IMG/VR virus record: IMGVR_UViG_3300013094_000033
Coordinates: 1 to 64,000 of that record
From: a virus
DNA length: 64,000 nucleotides
Reading direction: 5' to 3' (one strand)
Shown: positions 1-9,056 of the stretch, piece by piece
How positions within the stretch are numbered: the stretch's first letter is position 1
Layout: each line of letters starts with the position of its first letter
Notes under the pieces: generated by a model
Database searches by the model: none
What the model was told of the DNA's origin: nothing
Seen by the model: the letters and a program-made list of their open reading frames with translations, nothing else
Translations under genes and position numbers: made by a program

Positions 1-74
1 CGGAGTGTACGGGACTCGAACCCGTGGCCTCATGCGTGACAGGCATGCGATCTAACCAACTGAGCTAACACTCC
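1..74 (-). tRNA. tRNA-Asp(GUC); the 3' CCA, if encoded, lies beyond the window edge
   Basis: Reverse complement GGAGTGTTAGCTCAGTTGGTTAGATCGCATGCCT-GTC-ACGCATGAGGCCACGGGTTCGAGTCCCGTACACTCCG forms a cloverleaf with a TTCGA T-loop and G discriminator. Confidence 0.95.
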
Positions 75-77
75 AAA

Positions 78-298
78 ACTATATTAAGATGTACTACAGG
101 AACCATTGTAGATCTATCTCTACCTAAGGGAACGTCTCCGCATAGGCCTCCACGGTCATTACTGCCTACATGATCCGTCATCTCATCCTATTGCTAGGAC
201 CTGACTTCGTGAACTCTAAGATTGCGTAGGGCGGCCCCTTTGCTCCTCTCTTAAAGTGCCTAACGGTGTAGGTAACCTCTAATACATTTTAATATAGT
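78..298 (-). ncRNA. Unidentified ~220-nt structured RNA, copy 1 of a tandem pair
   Basis: The ends pair in a long AU-rich stem. Internal hairpins include UCCUA-GCAA-UAGGA. Roughly 80-85% identical by eye to 304-529, with compensatory changes. No ORF in the track. Confidence 0.75.
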
Positions 299-303
299 AA
301 GAA

Positions 304-529
304 ACTATATTAAGATATATTATAGGAACCATTGTTGATCTATCTCTACTTACAGGAACCTTTCCACGTAAGTCTCAACGGTCATTACTGCCTACCGACT
401 CCGTCATCCGATCCCATTGCTAGGACCTGACTTCATGGACTTTAAGATTGCGTCAGTAGCTCTCGACTACTTGCACCTCTTTTTAAGTCCCTAACGGTGT
501 AGGTAACCTTTAATACATTTTAATATAGT
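304..529 (-). ncRNA. Unidentified ~225-nt structured RNA, copy 2 of a tandem pair
   Basis: Same architecture as copy 1. Most internal differences keep pairing on the minus strand through G-U wobbles or compensatory swaps. Confidence 0.75.
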
Positions 530-550
530 ATGAAACTATACTAATTTAAT

Positions 551-578
551 TTTTAAAGAACGTTGTTAATTTCTTAAC
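551..578 (-). promoter_or_regulatory. boxB-like hairpin plus boxA-like antitermination signal
   Basis: Minus strand reads GTTAA-GAAA-TTAAC then CGTTCTTTAAAA (rrn boxA consensus TGCTCTTTAACA), just after a promoter and before non-coding RNA genes. Confidence 0.55.
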
Positions 579-586
579 ATGTATGT

Positions 587-615
587 ATTGTAGCAAACTT
601 TTCTTTTTGGTGCAA
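587..615 (-). promoter_or_regulatory. sigma70-type promoter for the ncRNA/tRNA region
   Basis: TTGCAC-17 nt-TACAAT on the minus strand. Confidence 0.7.
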
Positions 616-692
616 CTGTTTTTTACAACTGTTGCTTTTTTGCTACAACGTTTGTTTGATAACAAACTTGGTTAATTTCTTAACTTGTTTCT

Positions 693-737
693 ATTGTATA
701 ACAAACGTCTTTATGTGTCTGTTGTATTTTTACAACA
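693..737 (-). promoter_or_regulatory. Second tandem sigma70-type promoter with an adjacent palindrome
   Basis: CAGACA-17 nt-TACAAT, followed by the same GTTAAGAAATTAAC hairpin (671-684) as the first promoter. Palindrome TGTTGTA-N4-TACAACA at 720-737. Confidence 0.55.
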
Positions 738-743
738 TGTTGT

Positions 744-784
744 TATTCTAAAACACACTAGTTTGCTTAATGTGTTTTAGAATA
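744..784. repeat. Perfect 14-bp AT-rich inverted repeat (processing stem or terminator-like)
   Basis: TATTCTAAAACACA (744-757) pairs with TGTGTTTTAGAATA (771-784). No U-tract follows on either strand. Confidence 0.6.
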
Positions 785-927
785 CCCTCTTGGTAGAGGA
801 TATGGTAGGGTTGATACCCTACCCAGGAGTCTTACTAAGTGCATTTTCGCTACACGTTCATGTATCCTGTCCGCCCGTTTTGCTTGTTTATTGTGTTGCA
901 GGGACCTCGTTTCCCATTCCACATAAC

Positions 928-959
928 AAAAAACCCTAGGGTTTTTAATCCTAGGGTCC
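928..959 (-). terminator. Intrinsic terminator of a putative attenuator
   Basis: Minus strand GGACCCUAGG-AUUAAAAAC-CCUAGGG-UUUUUU. Confidence 0.75.
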
Positions 960-981
960 TTGGAGTTTGTGTACTTTTTAG

Positions 982-1128
982 TTACACCGTGTCCTCCCGG
1001 ACCCTAGTAATCTCTGATGTGCGATCATTACTTGTAAACATCGGCGCACAAATCACAGACCAATAGGCTAACACGCCTAGTTTGGGCTGTTTATTTTGTA
1101 GCGAATGTCTTAGAGTTGTTTGCATCAT
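982..1128 (-). CDS. 48-aa putative leader peptide MMQTTLRHSLQNKQPKLGVLAYWSVICAPMFTSNDRTSEITRVREDTV (not in the ORF track)
   Basis: ATG at 1128 and TAA at 984-982 are in frame. AGGT and a GATAAATA late-type motif lie upstream. The 3' end overlaps the antiterminator strand. Confidence 0.6.
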   Translation of the reverse strand: MMQTTLRHSLQNKQPKLGVLAYWSVICAPMFTSNDRTSEITRVREDTV

Positions 1129-1159
1129 GTACCTATTGTAGTTTATTTATCTCTTGTTG

Positions 1160-2413
1160 TCAAATGTATTTATTAAATTCGGTAATCAACCAGGGAAAAG
1201 TTTTTGGCCAACTTGTGCCGCGTCTACGATCCATTTCAGTTAAAAAGTAATACAATCGTTTTATCATTTCCAAATTTGGTCGTTTGCTAGCAGATTGTTT
1301 AGCTATACCCAACAGATAATTTTTATTAGATTGATCTTCAGGGAATGTATCTGCTTTAAGAGCAATTGCTCGATTAAAATCATCAACAAAAATATCCCCA
1401 AAAATATCAATTAGGAAATGTGGTGGCCCACTTGGTGCACATTGATAATGTGCAACAGGTCTAATTTTATTCCATTCACGTATTTTAACTAATAAATCCG
1501 GCAAAGTCTTTACAGTCAACGGAGTTACTGTAGAACTAATAATTAAATTTATCCACTTATGTTGTAGTAGATAGTTAAAATTTTCTTCCCATATAGTTAG
1601 ATCCAATGGAAATCTAACGTATTCTTGTTCTGGCCCCCAACAATCTAAACTTGCAGTTATTTCAACCCCTGCAATTTTTTTACTGCCAACTAATTTGCGT
1701 AACCTGCCAACAATGTTGGTTAGATGTTTTAAATTTGTATTAAGATTAGTAAAGAATTGTAATTTTAAATGCGGTGCAGGATATTCATCAAATAAATCTA
1801 AGCATTGCTCAAATTCTTTTTGATACAATGGTTCTCCACCTAATATGTTAAAATTAGTCAGATACTTTCCGTTTTCCTTAAGCCAAGAAAATATCTTTTC
1901 TTTATTTGAATCTATATTTTTACTTTTTTGAAATTTGTCAGAAATATCAATTGCTTGACTTTTAAAATACCCAAATTTTTTATTTTCAGCGTCCCACAGA
2001 CTACTAAATTTAGGACTACAATACAAGCATTTTAAATTACAGGTATTGTCAAAGTAAACTTCTAATATTCGCGGAGTAACACGTATTGCAGAGCTATCAG
2101 TGTCTAGCTCGGGTGGCGGATACATACCTGGAAAATTTAAATTTGTGATCCTGTCACTTTGTCCGCCAGCATCTTCTATATTTTTACAGTATTCACAGCC
2201 ATCCCCGGGCCATTGGCCCTCTAGCATCAAAGATCTTTGCTTGAGTTTTTCGGGGGTGTTGTGAAAATCGAATGTGCTAGTGTCAAATTTATGTTGGTTT
2301 ACACGATGACAACTAGCAGTTTCTTCAGTTGTTAAAAAAATTGTACTCCAATTCCACTTTAGCTGGCAAGCAGTTTCGGTTTGAATTGGAAATAATTTAT
2401 GCTTTAACGTCAT
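1160..2413 (-). CDS. Radical SAM protein with N-terminal auxiliary Cys motifs
   Basis: CNLKCLYC (CxxxCxxC), GGEP, and N-terminal CQLKW/CH/CEYC. Confidence 0.9.
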   Translation of the reverse strand: MTLKHKLFPIQTETACQLKWNWSTIFLTTEETASCHRVNQHKFDTSTFDFHNTPEKLKQRSLMLEGQWPGDGCEYCKNIEDAGGQSDRITNLNFPGMYPPPELDTDSSAIRVTPRILEVYFDNTCNLKCLYCSPKFSSLWDAENKKFGYFKSQAIDISDKFQKSKNIDSNKEKIFSWLKENGKYLTNFNILGGEPLYQKEFEQCLDLFDEYPAPHLKLQFFTNLNTNLKHLTNIVGRLRKLVGSKKIAGVEITASLDCWGPEQEYVRFPLDLTIWEENFNYLLQHKWINLIISSTVTPLTVKTLPDLLVKIREWNKIRPVAHYQCAPSGPPHFLIDIFGDIFVDDFNRAIALKADTFPEDQSNKNYLLGIAKQSASKRPNLEMIKRLYYFLTEMDRRRGTSWPKTFPWLITEFNKYI

Positions 2414-2642
2414 TCGTAGTGGTGGTATTCAACGTTGGTTCGTTAATACGTTTAAGTTCATCGTCAGTCATAAAACGACTTGGTTGTTCATTTACTGTAT
2501 TCCAGTTTTTAAACCAACCCAGTGGTTTCCAGAATCTATAAATGATGTTGTTAACAACAACAATAAGAATTACTGCTACAAGAATTGCCAAACCAGTTAA
2601 AATACTTCCGGCCAAAATGTTAGCGGCGTTATCGATATCCAT
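2397..2642 (-). CDS. Small membrane protein
   Basis: One hydrophobic helix (ILAGSILTGLAILVAVILIVVV). AAGGA RBS upstream. Confidence 0.7.
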   Translation of the reverse strand: MDIDNAANILAGSILTGLAILVAVILIVVVNNIIYRFWKPLGWFKNWNTVNEQPSRFMTDDELKRINEPTLNTTTTNDVKA

Positions 2643-2664
2643 TGTGTTTCCTTGAAAAGTTGAT

Positions 2665-2741
2665 TGGTGCGCCGAGAGGGACTTGAACCCCCAACCAATC
2701 GATTATGAGTCGACTGCTCTAACCAACTGAGCTATCAGCGC
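2665..2741 (-). tRNA. tRNA with CAU anticodon, most likely tRNA-Ile2 (lysidine type)
   Basis: GCGCTGATAGCTCAGTTGGTTAGAGCAGTCGACT-CAT-AATCGATTGGTTGGGGGTTCAAGTCCCTCTCGGCGCACCA. The anticodon arm resembles ileX-type tRNAs and lacks the initiator GGG/CCC stem. Confidence 0.9.
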
Positions 2742-2750
2742 AAGTTTTAT

Positions 2751-2779
2751 ATTATACTAGCAAATTAGTATTGTGTCAA
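2751..2779 (-). promoter_or_regulatory. Perfect-consensus sigma70 promoter for the CAU tRNA
   Basis: TTGACA-17 nt-TATAAT, with the -10 box about 10 nt upstream of the tRNA 5' end. Confidence 0.9.
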
Positions 2780-4461
2780 GTTCTACGTTGACGTCCGGGC
2801 ACAGTCTGTGGCGTTGTAGCAACACGTTTTGTACGAGGAGTAGAATCTGCTGGGCCAAGACCATGTATGGCTACATCTTCTTTTTCTTCTTGCTGTTCTG
2901 CTTGTGCTCGAAGTTGTACACGAGTTGGGTCGCTGTTAAATTTCTGGAAATATTCTTTTGCTCTGGCACTTGTTGCACTTGGACCAAAATAAATTCCGGG
3001 ACTACACTTGGCTGCACTTCTATTCATAGTCATTGGACTAGGAAAATGTACCGTCGATTCTCCAGAATTAGAATCTGGTTTGTCGTTTAACAAGTTAACT
3101 ATGTCCTTGGCCATAATGATCTTGTACTCTTGCACACTACTGTTAAACAAGATAAACCCATCGTTGCCTTTGCCAGCTGCGTATTCAATTAATGCCATTA
3201 CACCCTGTTCACGTGCAATAGTTTTTGTATCCATGGTATCAATGGCCTTCATTAGGCGTCGCATCGCGGCTTTAAAATCATATCCTGGGAAATTTAAAGT
3301 ACTAGGAAACATAGATCCCATCATGTAGCCAATTAATCTTGGTGCGGCGCCCGGCTTTTTGACACTTAGCAAATTTAAAAATGTAACAAGATCTGGTAAC
3401 TTAGAACTACGGAAGTCTGCATTATTCCATAATGAATTCATTTTTGTATCCATTGTACCAAAGTTCTCTAGCAACCAATCATTGCCAACACTACGCAGTT
3501 GTGCACCCGATACTTCTTTACCAGCCGTGCTGTCTAACCATGCTTCGTTTGCTTTACCGGTGCTAGGCAAAGAACCATCTTTGTTACGCTTACTAGTAGG
3601 GCTCAATGAACCGCATTTAACTTCAAATTTGGTGCGTTTACCATTGATGTCAATTACAACATCGCCACCTTCATCAGCAGCAGGTTTCTTAGCACCGCCC
3701 ATGATAGCCAACATAGCTTCAAATGGGCCAGTGGCTCCGCGTTGTCCAGTACTTAAACTAATGTCTAACAATGTATCTTTAACACTTGCAAACACATCTT
3801 TAACACCAGGAACTTTAGTTGTAACTACATCATCAAGTGATCCTTGTCTACGTTTTAACATACCTGCTACGTCCATGGCAGTATGATTTTCGCAGGCCTT
3901 TAAGAACTTTACACGTGATTCTCTTGGAATAGAAATACTAAACATACCAACAAGATTACGTGCCCAAATTGGTTTAAGATCAAAGTCCTTGGCAAATTGT
4001 TGTGCAGTTCTTTCAATGTCGGCATCAAGTTTACCAATTTCGCCCTTGGTATTAAGCTGAATACCTTTAATTGCTGCTGTAGTTGCACGAGCAACTTCAG
4101 GTTGTTGTGCTAACTGTACTTTAGTACTTAATGCCGCAACATACTGTTCAAACTCAGCCAACTTAGCGGCTTGATTTGGATGTTCTTGTTTGTATAATGC
4201 AAGAGCCGCATTTAAATATGCTTCATTTGCATTAGCAATAAATTGTTTGTTAGGAGTTGCACCTGATTGTTGTTTGATTGCTTCTGTTATATCAGGTTGT
4301 ACAACACGTAAAATATCAGCAGTAGTACCAACGATATAATCAATAAATTGATTTAGCGGAGACCCAGCAGGCAATTTGCTTTGTGCTTGAATCAAAGTCT
4401 TTAAGTTTGCGCCAAAACTAGTGGGTGAGGCGGCTTCTACTAGTGTAATTAAATCTCTCAT
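2776..4461 (-). CDS. Putative virion-internal protein with a PD-(D/E)xK nuclease-like domain
   Basis: N-terminus MRDLITLVE resembles a capsid-targeting propeptide. GPFE...GGDVVI...FEVKCG fits a nuclease motif. TAAATA lies 4 nt before the ATG. Confidence 0.55.
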   Translation of the reverse strand: MRDLITLVEAASPTSFGANLKTLIQAQSKLPAGSPLNQFIDYIVGTTADILRVVQPDITEAIKQQSGATPNKQFIANANEAYLNAALALYKQEHPNQAAKLAEFEQYVAALSTKVQLAQQPEVARATTAAIKGIQLNTKGEIGKLDADIERTAQQFAKDFDLKPIWARNLVGMFSISIPRESRVKFLKACENHTAMDVAGMLKRRQGSLDDVVTTKVPGVKDVFASVKDTLLDISLSTGQRGATGPFEAMLAIMGGAKKPAADEGGDVVIDINGKRTKFEVKCGSLSPTSKRNKDGSLPSTGKANEAWLDSTAGKEVSGAQLRSVGNDWLLENFGTMDTKMNSLWNNADFRSSKLPDLVTFLNLLSVKKPGAAPRLIGYMMGSMFPSTLNFPGYDFKAAMRRLMKAIDTMDTKTIAREQGVMALIEYAAGKGNDGFILFNSSVQEYKIIMAKDIVNLLNDKPDSNSGESTVHFPSPMTMNRSAAKCSPGIYFGPSATSARAKEYFQKFNSDPTRVQLRAQAEQQEEKEDVAIHGLGPADSTPRTKRVATTPQTVPGRQRRT

Positions 4462-4476
4462 CTTGTATTTATTCTT

Positions 4477-5229
4477 TTAATTAGTTATTTGATAAAGCCC
4501 GCGATCTAACCATTGTACTACTAGATCATCTAATCTAGCATGCCCATATTTGTTTACGCTTTTAGCAAGATAATCATTTATTAGTCCTTTTTCTGCTAAT
4601 TCATACCATGACACTTGCTCAGTTATGGGGTCATTTTCTGTTGCGTATACTGCTGCGTACAACCAAGGACTATTGTCTACTCTATAAAAATAAGCATCAT
4701 TACAATCAAACCCTGATATGGCCAGCATATATATTAAGCTGAGTATATTGTGACTGTAATATTGATGACTATGGTTGGCTACTACAAGCCTATTATTTAG
4801 CAAATAAGTAGTCTGTGGGATAGCCATTATTAACATGCCGTTTATGTTCATTGAACGTTTCCATGTGGCTAAACATTTAAAAGGATCTCTAGCATACTGA
4901 AAACTATCATGTGCCCAAATTATATCAACGTCCCTGGGCAATAGTCGCTCTTCAAAGTCACCTTCAATGGGTATAATATTTTTAGTTGCAAGAACTTCAG
5001 GTTCTAAACGACCGATATCTTTATCAACTGCATATACTATATAATTTCTAGGTTCCGGCGGATCATCACGTGTTTCAAGATTGCCCCACCAGTATGAATC
5101 AAGCCCTTGCCCACAACCCATGTCTGCAACAGTGAGTATGTTGTCTAAGAAGCTGTCATATCCATAAATTAAATTTAAGATAGTTAAACTATGTTGATGA
5201 CTGTCGTATGCGTTTTTAAATAGAGCCAT
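4477..5229 (-). CDS. Class I SAM-dependent methyltransferase
   Basis: VADMGCGQG motif I, YAVD, and DIIWAHDSFQY. Confidence 0.85.
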   Translation of the reverse strand: MALFKNAYDSHQHSLTILNLIYGYDSFLDNILTVADMGCGQGLDSYWWGNLETRDDPPEPRNYIVYAVDKDIGRLEPEVLATKNIIPIEGDFEERLLPRDVDIIWAHDSFQYARDPFKCLATWKRSMNINGMLIMAIPQTTYLLNNRLVVANHSHQYYSHNILSLIYMLAISGFDCNDAYFYRVDNSPWLYAAVYATENDPITEQVSWYELAEKGLINDYLAKSVNKYGHARLDDLVVQWLDRGLYQITN

Positions 5230-5470
5230 CGGTTAATATATCCAGTACTACTGTTTCTTTAAATTTTTTAAGTCGAGGCTCAAGTTGGTGGCAAGCCTCT
5301 GCAATCTCATGATCACTGCCCCAGGCTCGTTGTGTATGTAAATGATTTGCCCACGTTGCACAACTTTCTTTAGCAATCTCAACATCTAATGCATTATGAT
5401 AAGGTCGGGCGCGGCAACATGCTGAGTACTCGTCTAGCATCTCATCTGCACGTGCTTTCCAATCTATCAT
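5216..5470 (-). CDS. Hypothetical protein
   Basis: ORF overlaps both neighbours in an operon-like arrangement. Confidence 0.7.
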   Translation of the reverse strand: MIDWKARADEMLDEYSACCRARPYHNALDVEIAKESCATWANHLHTQRAWGSDHEIAEACHQLEPRLKKFKETVVLDILTDGSI

Positions 5471-5919
5471 ACTATGATATCCTCCATACCAGCAGTACGT
5501 AACCTAACTACGTGTCCTAGCATAAAGTTTTTACTTTCAATGCCTTTCATAACGCCTAACCACTTGTTTCGTAGTAATGCGACTTCGTTAATGATGGTTT
5601 CCATGTCAATTACTTCATCTTCGGCCTCGGCGTACTTTTCAGCGTCCCTACTGGTTAATGCACGAGCATACGCTTCAAGATATTTTTTATAATGCTTTTG
5701 CCTAATCTTACGCAACTGTATATTTAAGAATTCCAATACAGCTTCAATTTCCTGTAATTGATTGAATCGTTGCTCAGTAATTCCCGGCAGATTACTTAGC
5801 GCACGCTCAACATTACCAGTGATGCGAATTTCTCCCTTGGCAATCTTTAATTCATGTTCGTAGTAATCAATAAATCCTGGAATTTCGCCCAGGTTTGCAA
5901 CAACTCTGTTATACCACAT
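5467..5919 (-). CDS. uvsY: UvsY-like recombination mediator
   Basis: 150-aa helical protein with KYLEAYARALTSRDAEKYAEAE; lies near uvsX. Confidence 0.75.
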   Translation of the reverse strand: MWYNRVVANLGEIPGFIDYYEHELKIAKGEIRITGNVERALSNLPGITEQRFNQLQEIEAVLEFLNIQLRKIRQKHYKKYLEAYARALTSRDAEKYAEAEDEVIDMETIINEVALLRNKWLGVMKGIESKNFMLGHVVRLRTAGMEDIIV

Positions 5920-5921
5920 GT

Positions 5922-6152
5922 TTAATCTTCGTAATTATAGTTGTCGTCTTCATCTTCTTCATCAGCTGAATACTCTTTGAAAGCACGTTTTAATGTAGAA
6001 TCAGTGCCTCCAAATTCTCGGAGATCCAAATCATTCAACATATCAACCATGACACTCATTAAGTTATCTGCTGCTTCTTGTCGGTCTTTTGTCGGGATAT
6101 ACTGTTTTAAAATAGTATACATTTCACTAAGGACTTCAACCTCGATACTCAT
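5922..6152 (-). CDS. Small acidic hypothetical protein
   Basis: Coupled ORF with an acidic tail (DEEDEDD). Confidence 0.7.
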   Translation of the reverse strand: MSIEVEVLSEMYTILKQYIPTKDRQEAADNLMSVMVDMLNDLDLREFGGTDSTLKRAFKEYSADEEDEDDNYNYED

Positions 6153-7609
6153 AATGTTTTACCTTCTGCAATTAATTGTTTAACTCTTATTAAGTTTATT
6201 CGTCCTGCAAATAAACTTGCATCATCAACTACTTTATGTATGACAATTTTTTCAATGTTAGGATTTTCTAACAATTCCCTCATTTTAACCAATATGTTTT
6301 CGTAGCACCTGTTAAAAATTGTTTGGCAACGTATACTCATTGGATAAAAGTTTAAAACTCTATCTGTGGCAGTAGGTTGATCAAACAAATATTCCGAGTA
6401 AGAATATATATCATCATCTAGTGCTAATTGTACTGCATTTTGAATATCAACTGGAAAAATTCTTGCGCCGCTGGGCAAATCAATAAATGATCTTCCTAGT
6501 ATATGATATTCGCCATTTTTAAATTCAACATAGTCGCCAGTATTAAAGTATCCATCTTCGTCTAATGATTTAACATGTACACTTTGACCTTCTGATTTGG
6601 CCCATAATTGCCCATTAACTACTTTAACTTCTGTGCCGGGATATATTTTACCAATTCCAGCACCAAATACATCAAAATTTGGAGTATCTATTTCAAGTAC
6701 TGCAATAGGAATAGAGCTTACCAATGATCCATAACAACTGATAATCTTATCTGCACCTGCATTAAAAATAACATCCATTGTTCTAGGACTAGGTTTATTG
6801 CCGCCTACAAATACTGTTGTACCTTTGAATACATTAGGTGGTAATGTAAAGTTAGGATGCCATTCTGTAATTTTTAAATGTACATCATAGAACCACATTT
6901 TAGTAAAAATATTTCTATTGGCCATCATAACCAAATCGTAGAAATTATTCATTGTATAGTATGTGGTTCCAGCAAGTAACGGTGCAATCACCACCTGGGA
7001 AGTTAATCCAATATGAGTAACACCATTGACAGATCCAAAATGATCATCTTCGTCATAAAACGATTTAGACATCATTGCGGCTCCGATATAGGTCCCGCTA
7101 GTATGGGGAACATAGGTATTAGCAAGTCCCAATACTTCTCCACCTATTAGATCCCGAGATGGATCAATGTATGTTGGTGTGTATGTTGGCCTATTTGCTT
7201 CAAATTCCGAATTCAACTCTTTTTCATTGAGTATATACAAAGGTAAATCTGCTATTGGACTATCTTCAACTTTGTTCGGATCAAACCATGTAGAACCAAA
7301 TGCTGGATTAATATAATTTATGTCAACACCTGCACCCCTGCGTCTAAAGGGCTCTGGTCCATCTGTTAAATTTGAAGTTTCAATCATTATACCAAGTTCA
7401 GCGGCAGCAAAAAACATAGCAATGCTGTCGATGATGGGAAATGTGCAAATAAGAATACGTTTATATCCTGCGGCTTGCCATTTATTTTTCCAGAACTGTG
7501 TGCGATCTAAAAAATATTGTTTATCTCGTTTATTAAATGCAAGATCTACTATTACAGTTTTATCATGTATTAGATCCTGAGTGCTAGTAGGAGTCGACCA
7601 ATCAATCAT
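6149..7609 (-). CDS. ANL-superfamily (AMP-binding / acyl-CoA synthetase-like) protein with degenerate motifs
   Basis: SCYG, GYFNTGD (A7), ILGR (A8). Paralogue of 7602-9056. Confidence 0.7.
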   Translation of the reverse strand: MIDWSTPTSTQDLIHDKTVIVDLAFNKRDKQYFLDRTQFWKNKWQAAGYKRILICTFPIIDSIAMFFAAAELGIMIETSNLTDGPEPFRRRGAGVDINYINPAFGSTWFDPNKVEDSPIADLPLYILNEKELNSEFEANRPTYTPTYIDPSRDLIGGEVLGLANTYVPHTSGTYIGAAMMSKSFYDEDDHFGSVNGVTHIGLTSQVVIAPLLAGTTYYTMNNFYDLVMMANRNIFTKMWFYDVHLKITEWHPNFTLPPNVFKGTTVFVGGNKPSPRTMDVIFNAGADKIISCYGSLVSSIPIAVLEIDTPNFDVFGAGIGKIYPGTEVKVVNGQLWAKSEGQSVHVKSLDEDGYFNTGDYVEFKNGEYHILGRSFIDLPSGARIFPVDIQNAVQLALDDDIYSYSEYLFDQPTATDRVLNFYPMSIRCQTIFNRCYENILVKMRELLENPNIEKIVIHKVVDDASLFAGRINLIRVKQLIAEGKTL

Positions 7610-9056
7610 TTATTGTATGCCCATCATTAATTAATTGTTTAATTCTTAGCAAAATAATTCGACCAGCAAATAAATTTGCATCATTAACCAGTGGATTTAT
7701 TTTTATTTCAGTTATACCAGTATTTTCCAGGATATTTTGTAGTGCAGATAACAAATTATCTTTGTTTCTTACCATAACATCTTTGGCACGTTTACTTAAA
7801 GGATAGAATTCAATGCATGAAGGTTGTTCTTCAAACATATATTCAGAATAATACAAATCTTCATCTAATGCTGATTGTACTGCATTTTGAATATCAACTG
7901 TAAAGACTTTTTTACCACTTGCAGTAAACCTACGCTCTCTACCTAGGTATTTATACACTCCGTTGGTTAAAGAAACATAGTCAAATGTATTAAAAAATCC
8001 GTCGGCATCAATATCTTTGATATATTTGCTTTGTGATGAAGTTTTAATCCAAAGTTGATCGTCAATGATCTTTACTTGTGTTTCATCATATACCCTACCT
8101 AAGTTTGAATTATAAACATCAAATTGATCATTGTCAATTTCTAATTCAAATACTGGGCCAACTGCTAAGAATGTACCATAACAGCTTACAATTTTATCTG
8201 CCCCAGCGTCGAAGACCACATCCATTAATCTAGGACTAGGAATAGACCCTGCACAAAATATTGTACAGTTTTTAAATGCATTAATAGGTATAGAAAAGTT
8301 TGGATGCCAATCAGTTAATTTTAAATGTACATCATAGAAAAATACTTTAGTGAATATATTTCTACATGCCATAAACAACAAATCATAAAATCCGTTGATT
8401 GTATAAAATTTTACACCAGCAAACAATGGACCAAGCACCACCTGCGACAATAATCCAATGTGTGTGATCCCGTTTACTGCACCAAATCTATCTGAGGTGT
8501 TGTACATAGGCATACATAACAATCCAGCATGCATAAATCTATCCGCAGTATGCATAACTCTACTATCAGGAATACCAGTTACTTCGCCAGTGATTAAATT
8601 TGCTTCAGGATGGATTAAATCAGGACTATACAAGGGCCTGTTGGATTCAAAATCTTTGGTAATGGCTTTTTCGTCAAGTATAAATACCGGCAAATGCCCA
8701 ATTGGGCTACCTTTTATATCACGTGGATCAAACCAACTTGATGAAAAGAATGGATTAATATAATTCATTTCGGAAGTATCTGACCTGCGAATAAATGCCT
8801 CAGGGCCGTCAGCTAAATTTGATGTAGCAATAACGACACCAAGTTCAGCAGCAGCAAAGAAAATAGCAATAGTATCAATTGTTGGGTTGCTTGCAACTAA
8901 TACTGTACGGTACCCATGTTCTTTAATATGGTTTTTCCAATATTGTACTCTATCAAGAATATATTGTTTATCTCGATCAATAAATTCTAAGTCCACAATA
9001 ATTGTATTATCATGGATTAGATCCTGTGTTGTAAAAGGTTTGCTTGTATCAATCAT
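7602..9056 (-). CDS. ANL-superfamily (AMP-binding) protein with degenerate motifs
   Basis: TGEVTGIPDSRVMHT at the A3 position, SCYG, GFFNTFD, YLGR. Confidence 0.7.
   Translation of the reverse strand: MIDTSKPFTTQDLIHDNTIIVDLEFIDRDKQYILDRVQYWKNHIKEHGYRTVLVASNPTIDTIAIFFAAAELGVVIATSNLADGPEAFIRRSDTSEMNYINPFFSSSWFDPRDIKGSPIGHLPVFILDEKAITKDFESNRPLYSPDLIHPEANLITGEVTGIPDSRVMHTADRFMHAGLLCMPMYNTSDRFGAVNGITHIGLLSQVVLGPLFAGVKFYTINGFYDLLFMACRNIFTKVFFYDVHLKLTDWHPNFSIPINAFKNCTIFCAGSIPSPRLMDVVFDAGADKIVSCYGTFLAVGPVFELEIDNDQFDVYNSNLGRVYDETQVKIIDDQLWIKTSSQSKYIKDIDADGFFNTFDYVSLTNGVYKYLGRERRFTASGKKVFTVDIQNAVQSALDEDLYYSEYMFEEQPSCIEFYPLSKRAKDVMVRNKDNLLSALQNILENTGITEIKINPLVNDANLFAGRIILLRIKQLINDGHTIND

What the first reader, a model, noticed from the sequence alone, without database searches (positions are those of the whole stretch)
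78..529. Tandem pair of an unidentified ~220-nt structured RNA abutting tRNA-Asp
Seen in the sequence: two copies (78-298 and 304-529), roughly 80-85% identical, 5 nt apart, ending 3 nt before tRNA-Asp. Each is closed by a long AU-rich terminal stem. Differences preserve structure on the minus strand: CCUA/UAGG becomes CUUAC/GUAAG (compensatory); GGAG/UUCC becomes GGAA/UUCC; UCCUA-GCAA-UAGGA becomes UCCUA-GCAA-UGGGA around an invariant GNRA loop; and one hairpin is swapped entirely (AGGG/CCCU versus AGUAG/CUACU). Invariant blocks include GGUUACCUACACCGUUAGG, GAAGUCAGGUCCUAGCAAU, GUAGGCAGUAAUGACCGU and UAGAGAUAGAUC. CCUAC near the 5' end can pair with GUAGG inside the ACGG/CCGU stem-loop, suggesting a pseudoknot. 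I do not recognise the family. Inference: a processed, compact multi-helix RNA (ribozyme, protein decoy or anti-defence RNA) co-transcribed with the tRNAs, kept as two diverged paralogues.
Basis: partly seen in the sequence, partly recalled or inferred. Interest (0 to 1): 0.85.

Follow-up and report, generated by a model that had tools for sequence, protein, structure and literature searches.

The report
Duplicated folded RNA of lake phages
The two repeats are real sister genes for a tightly folded, roughly 220-base non-coding RNA from a large family that matches no catalogued RNA family, carried by uncultured giant freshwater phages, usually just after a strong promoter and just ahead of their aspartate tRNA gene; its job is still unknown.

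Summary
Window 78-298 and 304-529 are tandem copies (about 80% identical) of a structured RNA on the minus strand. Copy A ends 3 nt before tRNA-Asp(GUC).

The RNA belongs to a large family. All 120 lake-metagenome loci returned were members, as were more than 100 IMG/VR viral loci, many on 320-380 kb phage contigs. Covariation is strong: 92.7% of cells are paired against 36-43% in slid controls, and 39 pairs change on both sides.

No Rfam 15 family matches. Group I intron, RNase P, Y RNA, retron RNA, 6S, SRP, hammerhead and T4 rnaC/rnaD were considered and are not supported.

New points:
- The copies are sisters from a lineage-specific duplication, and copy B evolves about three times faster.
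- The conserved 5' core carries interchangeable 3' domains.
- The gene nearly always sits directly behind a sigma-70-type promoter.
- When a tRNA follows, it is tRNA-Asp in 40 of 56 cases, often within 15 nt.

Best reading: an early, stable, trans-acting phage RNA whose ends are defined by the promoter or host RNase III on one side and by RNase P cleavage at the tRNA on the other. It would bind a conserved partner. The function is inferred, not shown. This scan had already flagged the family in other genomes.

The parts
78..298 (-). Copy A of the structured RNA (221 nt), the less diverged copy
   Evidence: nhmmer 192.5 bits. The CM of the 5' core scores 90 bits, E = 3e-21. Fold z = -4.0. It deviates at 1 of 79 family-conserved columns.
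304..529 (-). Copy B of the structured RNA (226 nt), the faster-evolving sister copy
   Evidence: nhmmer 160.5 bits. CM 82.3 bits. Fold z = -6.0. It is sister to A with support 98/86, and its end branch is 0.16 against 0.058 for A. It deviates at 6 of 79 conserved columns, including the P6 loop GAGAC -> GAAAG.
276..298 (-). Copy A, 5' strand of the closing stem P1 (pairs with 78-100)
   Evidence: MFE fold. P1 covaries across the family, with 6 of 10 inner pairs changed on both sides. Median P1 length in the family is 22 pairs.
78..100 (-). Copy A, 3' strand of P1. It ends 3 nt before tRNA-Asp.
262..275 (-). Copy A, 5' strands of the long-range helix P2: UUA, CCUACA, CCGUU
   Evidence: Pairs with 156-179. 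Column pair 20/147 reads CG 32, AU 4, GC 4, UA 2. Column pair 24/139 reads GC 32, AU 8.
211..259 (-). Copy A, P3 long hairpin with a variable tip
   Evidence: 7 of 8 basal pairs show changes on both sides. The tip is swapped entirely between A and B.
188..210 (-). Copy A, conserved junction (C)AUGAA plus the P4 hairpin with a GCAA loop
   Evidence: All 5 P4 pairs covary. Loops in the family are GNRA or UNCG.
156..187 (-). Copy A, junction and 3' strands of P2: GACGG, internal loop, UGUAGG, CAGUAAUGA
   Evidence: This is the most conserved stretch of the family. UAGG..GUAAUGA is invariant in 59 sequences.
101..157 (-). Copy A, 3' domain type 1: P5 (GACC-GUGGA / UCUAC-AAU-GGUU), the P6 hairpin with loop AGACGU, and the strand GUAGAGAUAGA
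   Evidence: P5 and P6 covary (columns 166/212, 167/211, 172-180). Other family members replace this domain with other modules.
315..518 (-). Copy B, same helices P1 (inner) to P6
   Evidence: Column-to-coordinate map. Alignment A2.
1..74 (-). tRNA-Asp (GUC), the next gene downstream. The contig starts here.
   Evidence: Rfam RF00005 65 bits, full length. tRNA-Asp is the first downstream tRNA in 40 of 56 tRNA-linked family members.
551..737 (-). Leader of the transcription unit: promoter-like sites and a boxA-like CGUUCUUUAAAAA that ends 42 nt before the GG at the inner end of copy B's P1 5' strand
   Evidence: CAGACA-17-TACAAT at 721-693. TTGCAC-17-TACAAT read directly from the sequence. The boxA-like motif is found upstream in 22 of 73 unique elements.

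Best explanation
The stretch holds two sister genes of a stand-alone structured non-coding RNA. They belong to a large family, absent from Rfam 15, of uncultured giant freshwater phages.

In this phage the host RNA polymerase starts at sigma-70-type promoters followed by a boxA-like leader (about 590-720, minus strand). It transcribes copy B, copy A and tRNA-Asp as one stable-RNA operon.

Each copy folds into a rod. A 21-23 bp AU-rich closing stem P1 stacks on a long-range helix P2 (UUA/UAA, CCUACA/UGUAGG, CCGUU/GACGG). P2 ends in a three-way junction with a long variable hairpin P3 and a GNRA hairpin P4. A side domain (P5/P6) branches off between P2 and P1.

The mature RNA is most likely released by host enzymes. 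RNase P cutting at the 5' end of the tRNA 3 nt downstream would define the 3' end. Either the transcription start or a cut in or next to the P1 duplex (RNase III type) would define the 5' end. The RNA would then persist as a stable early RNA that acts in trans by binding a conserved partner through the invariant junction nucleotides (GGUUACC, UAGG, AUGAA, GUAAUGA, UUCC).

Shown here: the gene, its strand, the fold, the family, the promoter-proximal position and the tRNA-Asp linkage.

Inferred: the processing, the stability, the trans action and the existence of a partner.
For: 1. Family size. 108 nhmmer matches in 106 IMG/VR loci, and 120 of 120 lake-metagenome loci.

2. Fold. On 42 sequences 92.7% of cells are paired, against 36-43% when partners are slid. 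39 of 63 pairs change on both sides. The covariation score is 0.446 against 0.06-0.09, with 0 of 500 shuffles as high.

3. Strand. About 12% of paired cells are G-U, which would be A-C on the other strand. Fold z-scores favour the minus strand. The element has the same orientation as the tRNA and the promoters.

4. Stand-alone gene. A sigma-70-like promoter lies within 170 nt upstream in 56 of 73 unique elements. In one class the -10 box ends exactly 30 nt before the GG at the inner end of the P1 5' strand, so P1 starts at the transcription start. In the other class a boxA-like motif sits 50-56 nt upstream. 62 of 118 elements have no tRNA within 450 nt.

5. 3'-end definition. 31 elements have a tRNA within 15 nt of P1, and it is tRNA-Asp in 40 of the 56 tRNA-linked cases.

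6. Constraint typical of partner binding or catalysis. 27 invariant and 9 nearly invariant core positions across 59 sequences whose P3 and P4 sequences are largely replaced.

7. Both window copies keep the core. The CM scores 90 and 82 bits, and they deviate at 1 and 6 of 79 conserved columns.
Against: - There is no expression data. No RNA run holds the sequence, so a discrete stable species is not shown.
- No partner is identified. Neighbouring genes are small proteins with no informative Pfam match.
- Five near-complete genomes encode no Ro/TROVE, reverse transcriptase, RNase III or RtcB.
- The constant promoter-proximal position fits a cis-acting role equally well.
- In some members the next promoter overlaps the 3' end of the RNA and no terminator is visible, so the RNA may remain part of longer transcripts.
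Confidence: 0.42

Rival explanations
1. A cis-acting co-transcriptional element, comparable in logic to the put RNAs of phage HK022 or the EAR element. Made first after the promoter, it would stay with the transcribing polymerase or the nascent transcript. It would promote read-through, folding or processing of the highly structured genes downstream (tRNA-Asp, tRNA-Glu and others).
For: It is the first element behind a promoter in 56 of 73 unique cases. No terminator is visible between it and the next genes, which lie on the same strand. It often heads tRNA arrays.
Against: Operon-head members already carry a boxA-like antitermination signal. The 20+ bp closing stem that joins both ends is typical of excised stable RNAs. 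In several members the downstream gene has its own promoter overlapping the RNA's 3' end (L003, L079, L076), so read-through help is not needed there. A tandem second copy has no obvious use in cis.
Confidence: 0.15
2. A ribozyme: either self-cleaving, to free itself from the tRNA precursor, or acting on tRNA precursors.
For: The junction nucleotides are conserved to a degree typical of catalytic cores. It neighbours tRNA genes. Small ribozymes are known next to phage tRNAs (my own knowledge of hammerhead and HDV-like 'theta' ribozymes).
Against: No match to any ribozyme model in Rfam 15, even at E <= 10 on 471 bases. The three-way junction does not fit the hammerhead core: CAUGAAAC and GGAGAAGC in place of CUGANGA and GAA, read. 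Half of the members have no tRNA nearby. Where P1 begins at the transcription start, no 5' cut is needed.
Confidence: 0.1
3. A tRNA-binding RNA that holds or shields tRNA-Asp, and perhaps tRNA-Glu, for example against host anticodon nucleases. It would act through codon-like triplets displayed in conserved single strands: GAC or GAU in the P6 loop, and GAA or GAG in the AUGAA junction.
For: tRNA-Asp(GUC) is the first downstream tRNA in 40 of 56 tRNA-linked members and tRNA-Glu in 7. This holds even in phages with only one or two tRNAs (L006, L104, L106, L040). The P6 loop keeps GAC in most 3'-domain types, and changes to the synonymous GAU in L076, L106 and L041.
Against: A triplet in a 7-nt loop is weak evidence. 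Copy B, L024 and L049 lack it. The loop does not change in members followed by Ser, Leu or Lys tRNAs. The linkage may be inherited gene order among related phages.
Confidence: 0.07
4. A ligand-sensing aptamer (riboswitch-like), whose conserved multi-helix junction forms a binding pocket.
For: The architecture fits: a closing stem, conserved junctions, variable hairpin tips and optional hairpin extensions.
Against: There is no expression platform. P1 is about 22 bp and too stable to switch. What follows is a tRNA or a fresh promoter, not a regulated ORF. No riboswitch model matches.
Confidence: 0.05
5. A diverged member of a known family that Rfam models miss (group I intron, RNase P RNA, Y RNA, 6S, SRP), or a DNA-level repeat or miniature mobile element with terminal inverted repeats.
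For: GUAGAGAUAGAUC...ACAAUGG recalls the J8/7-P7 region and 3' end of group I introns (recalled from memory, a lead only). The terminal inverted repeats look like those of a miniature transposable element.
Against: No Rfam match at E <= 10. The helix order is nested, whereas group I introns need the P3/P7 pseudoknot. The GUAGAGAUAGA segment is absent from other 3'-domain types. No TROVE or RT gene is present. Many G-U pairs and compensatory changes in P1 show selection on the RNA, not on DNA repeats. There is one copy per genome in five near-complete genomes.
Confidence: 0.04

Closest known systems
Phage T4 rnaC and rnaD (species 1 and species 2 small stable RNAs in the T4 tRNA cluster)
   Same: Phage-encoded small stable RNAs of unknown function that lie in a tRNA gene cluster, on the same strand as the tRNAs and directly abutting one of them (T4 annotation).
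   Different: No homology. The family's covariance model finds nothing in the T4 tRNA region with filters off; the best score is 5.9 bits, E = 1.4. rnaC carries a tRNA-like T arm (GGGUUCGAAUCCC) that this RNA lacks. The T4 RNAs are 139 and 119 nt, lack the long closing stem, and sit at the end of the cluster rather than its head.
GOLLD and ROOL RNAs (Rfam; ornate phage and prophage RNAs, often near tRNA islands)
   Same: Elaborately folded RNAs of phages with unknown function, often next to tRNA islands. GOLLD was found in lake metagenomes and has one universally conserved part and one variable part (PMC12286853).
   Different: No Rfam match to either. This RNA is 200-230 nt, against about 580 and more than 800 nt. 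The helix layout is different. Oligomer formation, shown for GOLLD and ROOL, is untested here.
16S rRNA in a bacterial rrn operon (as an operon layout, not as a molecule)
   Same: Promoter(s), then a boxA-type leader, then a long stem pairing the flanks of a structured RNA, then tRNA genes. In E. coli rrnB, tRNA-Glu follows 16S. The long flanking stem is where RNase III cuts in rrn operons (established knowledge).
   Different: No sequence similarity to an E. coli rrn operon: nhmmer E = 0.47, and only 8-16 nt BLAST words. The RNA is 200 nt, not rRNA.
Bacterial Y RNAs (YrlA type)
   Same: A long stem formed by the 5' and 3' ends closes a structured module. Some are phage-encoded near tRNAs (my own knowledge).
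   Different: No Rfam match. No Ro/TROVE gene in five near-complete genomes. No tRNA-like T arm.

Membership tests
Uncatalogued lake-phage RNA family (this report; also flagged earlier in this scan) | Conserved core GGUUACCUAN-ACCRY-UAGG ... AUGAA ... GRYGG ... NUAGG-NN-GUAAUGA ... UUCC, closed by P1 | tested here: met
   Both copies match the 122-position covariance model end to end, at 90 and 82.3 bits. All columns that are invariant in A2 and A3 are by definition kept in both copies.
Uncatalogued lake-phage RNA family (this report; also flagged earlier in this scan) | Helices P1, P2, P3, P4, P5 and P6 supported by covariation | tested here: met
   The count of structure pairs on A2: 92.7% paired, and 39 pairs changed on both sides.
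Any Rfam 15 family | Covariance-model score at the gathering threshold, or a consistent sub-threshold match | tested here: not met
   Only tRNA matches appear at the gathering threshold. Nothing relevant at E <= 10 on 3000 or on 471 bases.
Group I intron | P3/P7 pseudoknot order (P7 5' strand, then P3 3' strand, then P8, then P7 3' strand) and a match to RF00028 | tested here: not met
   All covarying helices are nested. GUAGG (the 3' strand of the CCUAC helix) precedes the GUNNA/UNNAC helix. No RF00028 match.
Group I intron | Interrupts a conserved host gene, with exon-IGS pairing and a U-G pair at the 5' splice site | tested here: not met
   The flanks pair with each other and covary in sequence (ACUAUAUUAAAAUG versus CAGUUAGAAAAGAG). 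No conserved exon exists.
RNase P RNA | P4 long-range helix with CR-I and CR-V, and a match to the RNase P models | tested here: not met
   No RNase P model matches. P2 closes directly after P3 and P4, unlike RNase P.
Y RNA / YrlA | Partner Ro60 (TROVE) gene in the genome, and a tRNA-like module | tested here: not met
   TROVE is found in 0 of 5 near-complete genomes, while the control rings in Deinococcus.
Retron msr-msd RNA | Reverse transcriptase gene next to the RNA | tested here: not met
   RVT_1 is found in 0 of 5 near-complete genomes. No RT among the neighbours.
T4 rnaC / rnaD | Sequence and structure homology | tested here: not met
   cmsearch with filters off on the T4 tRNA region gives a best score of 5.9 bits.
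Hammerhead ribozyme | Three-way junction with CUGANGA, GAA and a NUH cleavage site | tested here: not met
   The junction strands are CAUGAAAC, GGAGAAGC and AG. No Rfam hammerhead match.
Processive antiterminator RNA (put / EAR type) | Acts in cis on the transcribing polymerase to suppress downstream terminators | not testable with these tools
   Only the promoter-proximal position is seen.

The most novel reading that the evidence does not exclude
The RNA is a new class of functional RNA that works directly on the phage's own acidic-amino-acid tRNAs. It would be either a tRNA-Asp/Glu-binding chaperone or shield that protects them from host anticodon nucleases, or a new ribozyme that matures them. 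That would explain why tRNA-Asp stays welded to it even in phages with no other tRNA.
Probability: 0.1. Interest if true: 0.85.

Novelty: new variant of a known kind. Interest (0 to 1): 0.6.

Why it matters
Ornate phage RNAs next to tRNA islands, such as GOLLD, ROOL and T4 rnaC/rnaD, are a long-standing puzzle. None has an established function.

This family is smaller and very abundant in lake metagenomes, and its fold is well determined by covariation. It has a strictly conserved core with swappable side domains, and it sits behind consensus host-type promoters. These features make it an unusually tractable case for finding what such RNAs do during infection.

The tandem, unequally diverging pair in this phage is a natural experiment. 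Positions kept in both copies mark what the function needs.

If the tRNA-Asp link is functional, the family would connect structured phage RNAs to tRNA biology or to tRNA-targeting defence.

Tried and rejected
- **Rfam 15.** Searched at the gathering threshold on the whole window, and at E <= 10 on 1-3000 and on 70-540. Only tRNAs and noise came back (mir-2319, HYMAI, ceN65).
- **GenBank phages.** blastn of 1-1200 matched only the tRNA-Asp.
- **Cultured large phages and T4.** The CM found no copy next to tRNA-Asp in Burkholderia FLC9, Yersinia fHe-Yen9-04, Pseudomonas Psa21 or phage C48C1. It found none in the T4 tRNA region.
- **rRNA mimicry.** nhmmer and short BLAST against E. coli rrnB gave nothing above noise.
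- **Resemblances seen by eye and dropped.**
  - Group I J8/7-like GUAGAGAUAGA: the topology is wrong, and the segment is absent in other 3'-domain types.
  - RNase P CR-I-like GAAGUCAGG and 4.5S RNA-like GUCAGGUCC / AGAUGACG: these occur only in the non-conserved parts of the window copies.
  - 5S rRNA: no model match, and the size is different.
  - Box C/D or kink-turn reading of GUAAUGA(UGA): the strands are not placed as a kink-turn needs.
  - Hammerhead core: the junction sequences do not fit.
  - SRP Alu-like U-turn: not analogous in position.
- **Loop-loop contact between the P3 tip and the P6 loop.** The pairing is not consistent across sequences (read).
- **Cellular genomes.** My pattern was too degenerate. 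None of the 120 loci returned is a true member, so presence or absence in cellular genomes remains open.
- **Expression.** No RNA holder was listed.
- **Partner search.** TROVE, RVT_1, RNase III and RtcB were absent from five near-complete genomes. Conserved neighbouring ORFs gave no informative Pfam match.
- **Literature.** Word searches found no description of this family.

Full report
**Observation**

The window is the first 64 kb of a 75 kb IMG/VR viral contig that CheckV rates 22% complete, so the phage is probably around 340 kb.

On the minus strand the order is: promoters and leader, copy B (529-304), 5 nt, copy A (298-78), 3 nt, then a full-length tRNA-Asp(GUC) at 74-1, where the contig ends.

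- The two copies match at E = 2e-59 with 82% identity.
- Both copies fold much better than shuffled sequence on the minus strand (z = -4.0 and -6.0). The plus strand of copy A gives -2.9.

Lake-water metagenome contigs cover the region. One contig with no mismatch spans 270-593 in two runs and bridges the A/B junction. A joint 102->504, equivalent to a single hybrid copy, appears in three runs. That joint may be a population variant or a collapse in the assembly graph.

**A large family**

An 18-nt conserved block found 31 IMG/VR loci. Two further blocks raised this to 106 loci. nhmmer confirmed 108 instances, 79 of them distinct. Many lie on contigs of 320-383 kb.

Copy number is usually one:
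- Five near-complete genomes (92-100%, 320-356 kb) hold one copy each.
- One short metagenome contig (L325) has two dispersed copies, each with its own promoter.
I did not check whether it belongs to this family.

The scan has flagged this family several times on other genomes, always with unknown function.

**Fold**

The fold was derived on 42 sequences that share the window's type of 3' domain (alignment A2).

- P1 is a closing stem with a median of 22 pairs in the family.
- P1 stacks on a long-range helix P2 made of UUA/UAA, CCUACA/UGUAGG and CCGUU/GRCGG.
- P2 ends in a three-way junction with a long hairpin P3 (variable tip) and a short hairpin P4 (GNRA or UNCG loop).
- After the invariant CAGUAAUGA comes a side domain. 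It consists of P5 (GACC-GUNNA / UNNAC-AAU-GGUU), hairpin P6 with loop AGACGK, and the conserved strand GUAGAGAUAGA.

Support for this structure:
- 92.7% of cells are paired, against 36-43% when the partners are slid.
- 39 of 63 pairs change on both sides.
- The covariation score is 0.446 against 0.06-0.09, and no shuffle out of 500 reaches it.
- About 12% of paired cells are G-U. These fix the strand as minus in the window.

CCUAC/GUAGG is a nested helix; its fifth pair is C-G 32, A-U 4, G-C 4 and U-A 2. The ACGG segment pairs with the 5' CCGU (G-C 32, A-U 8), not with the 3' CCGU.

**Modularity**

Across all members, the 5' two-thirds up to GUAAUGA, together with the final UUCC, is nearly constant. 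There are 27 invariant and 9 nearly invariant positions in 59 sequences.

The 3' domain comes in at least four forms, from about 60 nt down to a single short hairpin in L054. Most forms keep a hairpin loop GAGAC(G). The core is therefore the likely functional part, and the side domain is probably an exchangeable stabiliser.

**The pair in this window**

A and B are each other's closest relatives in a maximum-likelihood tree (support 98/86). They sit next to L039 and L025, so the duplication is specific to this lineage.

- B's end branch is about three times longer than A's (0.16 against 0.058).
- A departs from the family consensus at 1 of 79 strongly conserved columns. B departs at 6, including the P6 loop.
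- B still scores 82 bits on the core model (A scores 90) and has the stronger fold z-score.

B is therefore maintained, and is either relaxed or diverging in function.

**Context**

A sigma-70-type promoter lies within 170 nt upstream of 56 of 73 distinct elements. There are two layouts.

- In the first, the -10 box ends exactly 30 nt before the GG at the inner end of the P1 5' strand, so transcription starts at the base of P1.
- In the second, the promoter is about 90 nt upstream and is followed by a boxA-like UGUUCUUUAACAA 50-56 nt before that GG.

The window belongs to the second layout. CGUUCUUUAAAAA ends 42 nt before copy B's GG. Promoter-like sites are CAGACA-17-TACAAT at 721-693, and TTGCAC-17-TACAAT read from the sequence.

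Downstream context, for 118 distinct elements with at least 300 nt of sequence available:

| Downstream within 450 nt | Elements |
|---|---|
| No tRNA | 62 |
| A tRNA | 56 |
| ... first tRNA is Asp(GUC) | 40 |
| ... first tRNA is Glu(UUC) | 7 |
| ... tRNA within 15 nt of P1 | 31 |

The RNA plus tRNA-Asp pair persists in phages that carry one or two tRNAs only. Stand-alone members are followed within about 20 nt by the next promoter. In L003, L079, L076 and L059 the P5 strand UUGACA itself serves as the -35 box of that promoter.

**What it is not**

- No Rfam 15 family matches, even at E <= 10 on 471 bases.
- Group I intron, RNase P, hammerhead, 5S, 6S, SRP and kink-turn readings were examined and fail on topology, or rest on non-conserved letters (see Tried and rejected).
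- There is no similarity to an rrn operon.
- The covariance model finds nothing in the T4 tRNA cluster with rnaC and rnaD, nor next to tRNA-Asp in four cultured large phages.
- Five near-complete genomes lack TROVE, reverse transcriptase, RNase III and RtcB genes. That argues against a phage-encoded Ro, retron or ligase partner, and means any processing is done by host enzymes.
- Conserved neighbours are small proteins with no informative Pfam match.
- I found no paper describing the family.

**Most likely mechanism**

The evidence fits an early, abundantly transcribed, stable RNA. It has host-type consensus promoters, an rrn-like leader, both ends locked in a long duplex, and a 3' end that RNase P cleavage of the abutting tRNA would define. 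Its core is under constraint strong enough for specific binding or catalysis.

I therefore favour a trans-acting RNA that binds a conserved host or phage component. I give this about 0.4, because expression, processing and partner are all inferred.

The main rival is a cis-acting role at the head of the transcription unit. Smaller shares go to a ribozyme, a tRNA-Asp/Glu-binding RNA, and a ligand sensor.

By context, the closest known things are T4 rnaC/rnaD and the GOLLD and ROOL RNAs. The latter are also phage RNAs near tRNA islands with unknown function (PMC12286853). This RNA is not a member of any of them.

**Verdict**

This is a real and well-supported RNA gene pair. The family matches nothing in Rfam 15 and I did not find it described in print, but this scan has seen it before. 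The function remains open.

Noticed in passing
window 925-1163, minus strand: A near-consensus promoter (TTGACA-17-TACAAT, 1163-1135) is followed by a 204-nt ORF-free stretch that folds with z = -6.0. It ends in a terminator-like hairpin (ACCCUAGG/CCUAGGGU, then U6). Parts of it are 71-89% identical in many of the related phage loci. It is probably a separate structured RNA gene of another family.
   Followed up: partly
window 771-914, minus strand: A second conserved non-coding block lies between that terminator and the tandem promoters. It is 78-89% identical over 100-150 nt in L070, L052 and L014. It contains hairpins such as GGGUAGGGUAUCAACCCUACC.
   Followed up: partly
window 921-1000: Summed contig depth in four lake metagenomes jumps to 150-950x here, against 5-50x around it. 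The terminator-like element is therefore shared by many other genomes in the same lakes.
   Followed up: no
window 1160-9056, minus strand: Upstream gene set with weak Pfam matches: radical SAM (1160-2413), a methyltransferase (4477-5229) and two adjacent AMP-binding-like enzymes (6149-7609, 7602-9056). A tRNA-Met (2665-2741) is wedged between ORFs. This may be a small-molecule or peptide modification cluster.
   Followed up: no
L006, L044, L048, L325 (directly after the RNA): A roughly 75-nt tRNA-like module (GUCCCGGGAAUCC...CUGAGUUCGCAACUCAG...GGGACGCCA). It has an acceptor-like stem and an encoded CCA end, no obvious D arm, and an anticodon-like loop UUCGCAA. ARAGORN does not call it.
   Followed up: no
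L033, L104, L106, L040, L006 (after the RNA): The tRNA-Asp attached to promoter-driven family members has an unusual D arm (GUCCUCGGGGAGGGC) and an encoded CCA. In L033 it was not reported by Rfam at the gathering threshold, although it is readable by eye.
   Followed up: partly
L003, L079, L076, L059: The 3' strand of helix P5 reads UUGACA. With a 17-nt spacer and TATAAT, it forms a consensus promoter for the next gene, so the RNA gene and the promoter overlap.
   Followed up: no
L032, L040, L080 (after the RNA): Another recurring small module contains ...GGUG-hairpin-UUAAACGAG-hairpin-CGCCC... downstream of the RNA. It may be one more family of small phage RNAs.
   Followed up: no
window 102 and 504: Metagenome contigs from three runs join 102 to 504, which equals one hybrid copy (5' part of B, 3' part of A). 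This is either a single-copy variant in the population or an assembly-graph collapse.
   Followed up: no
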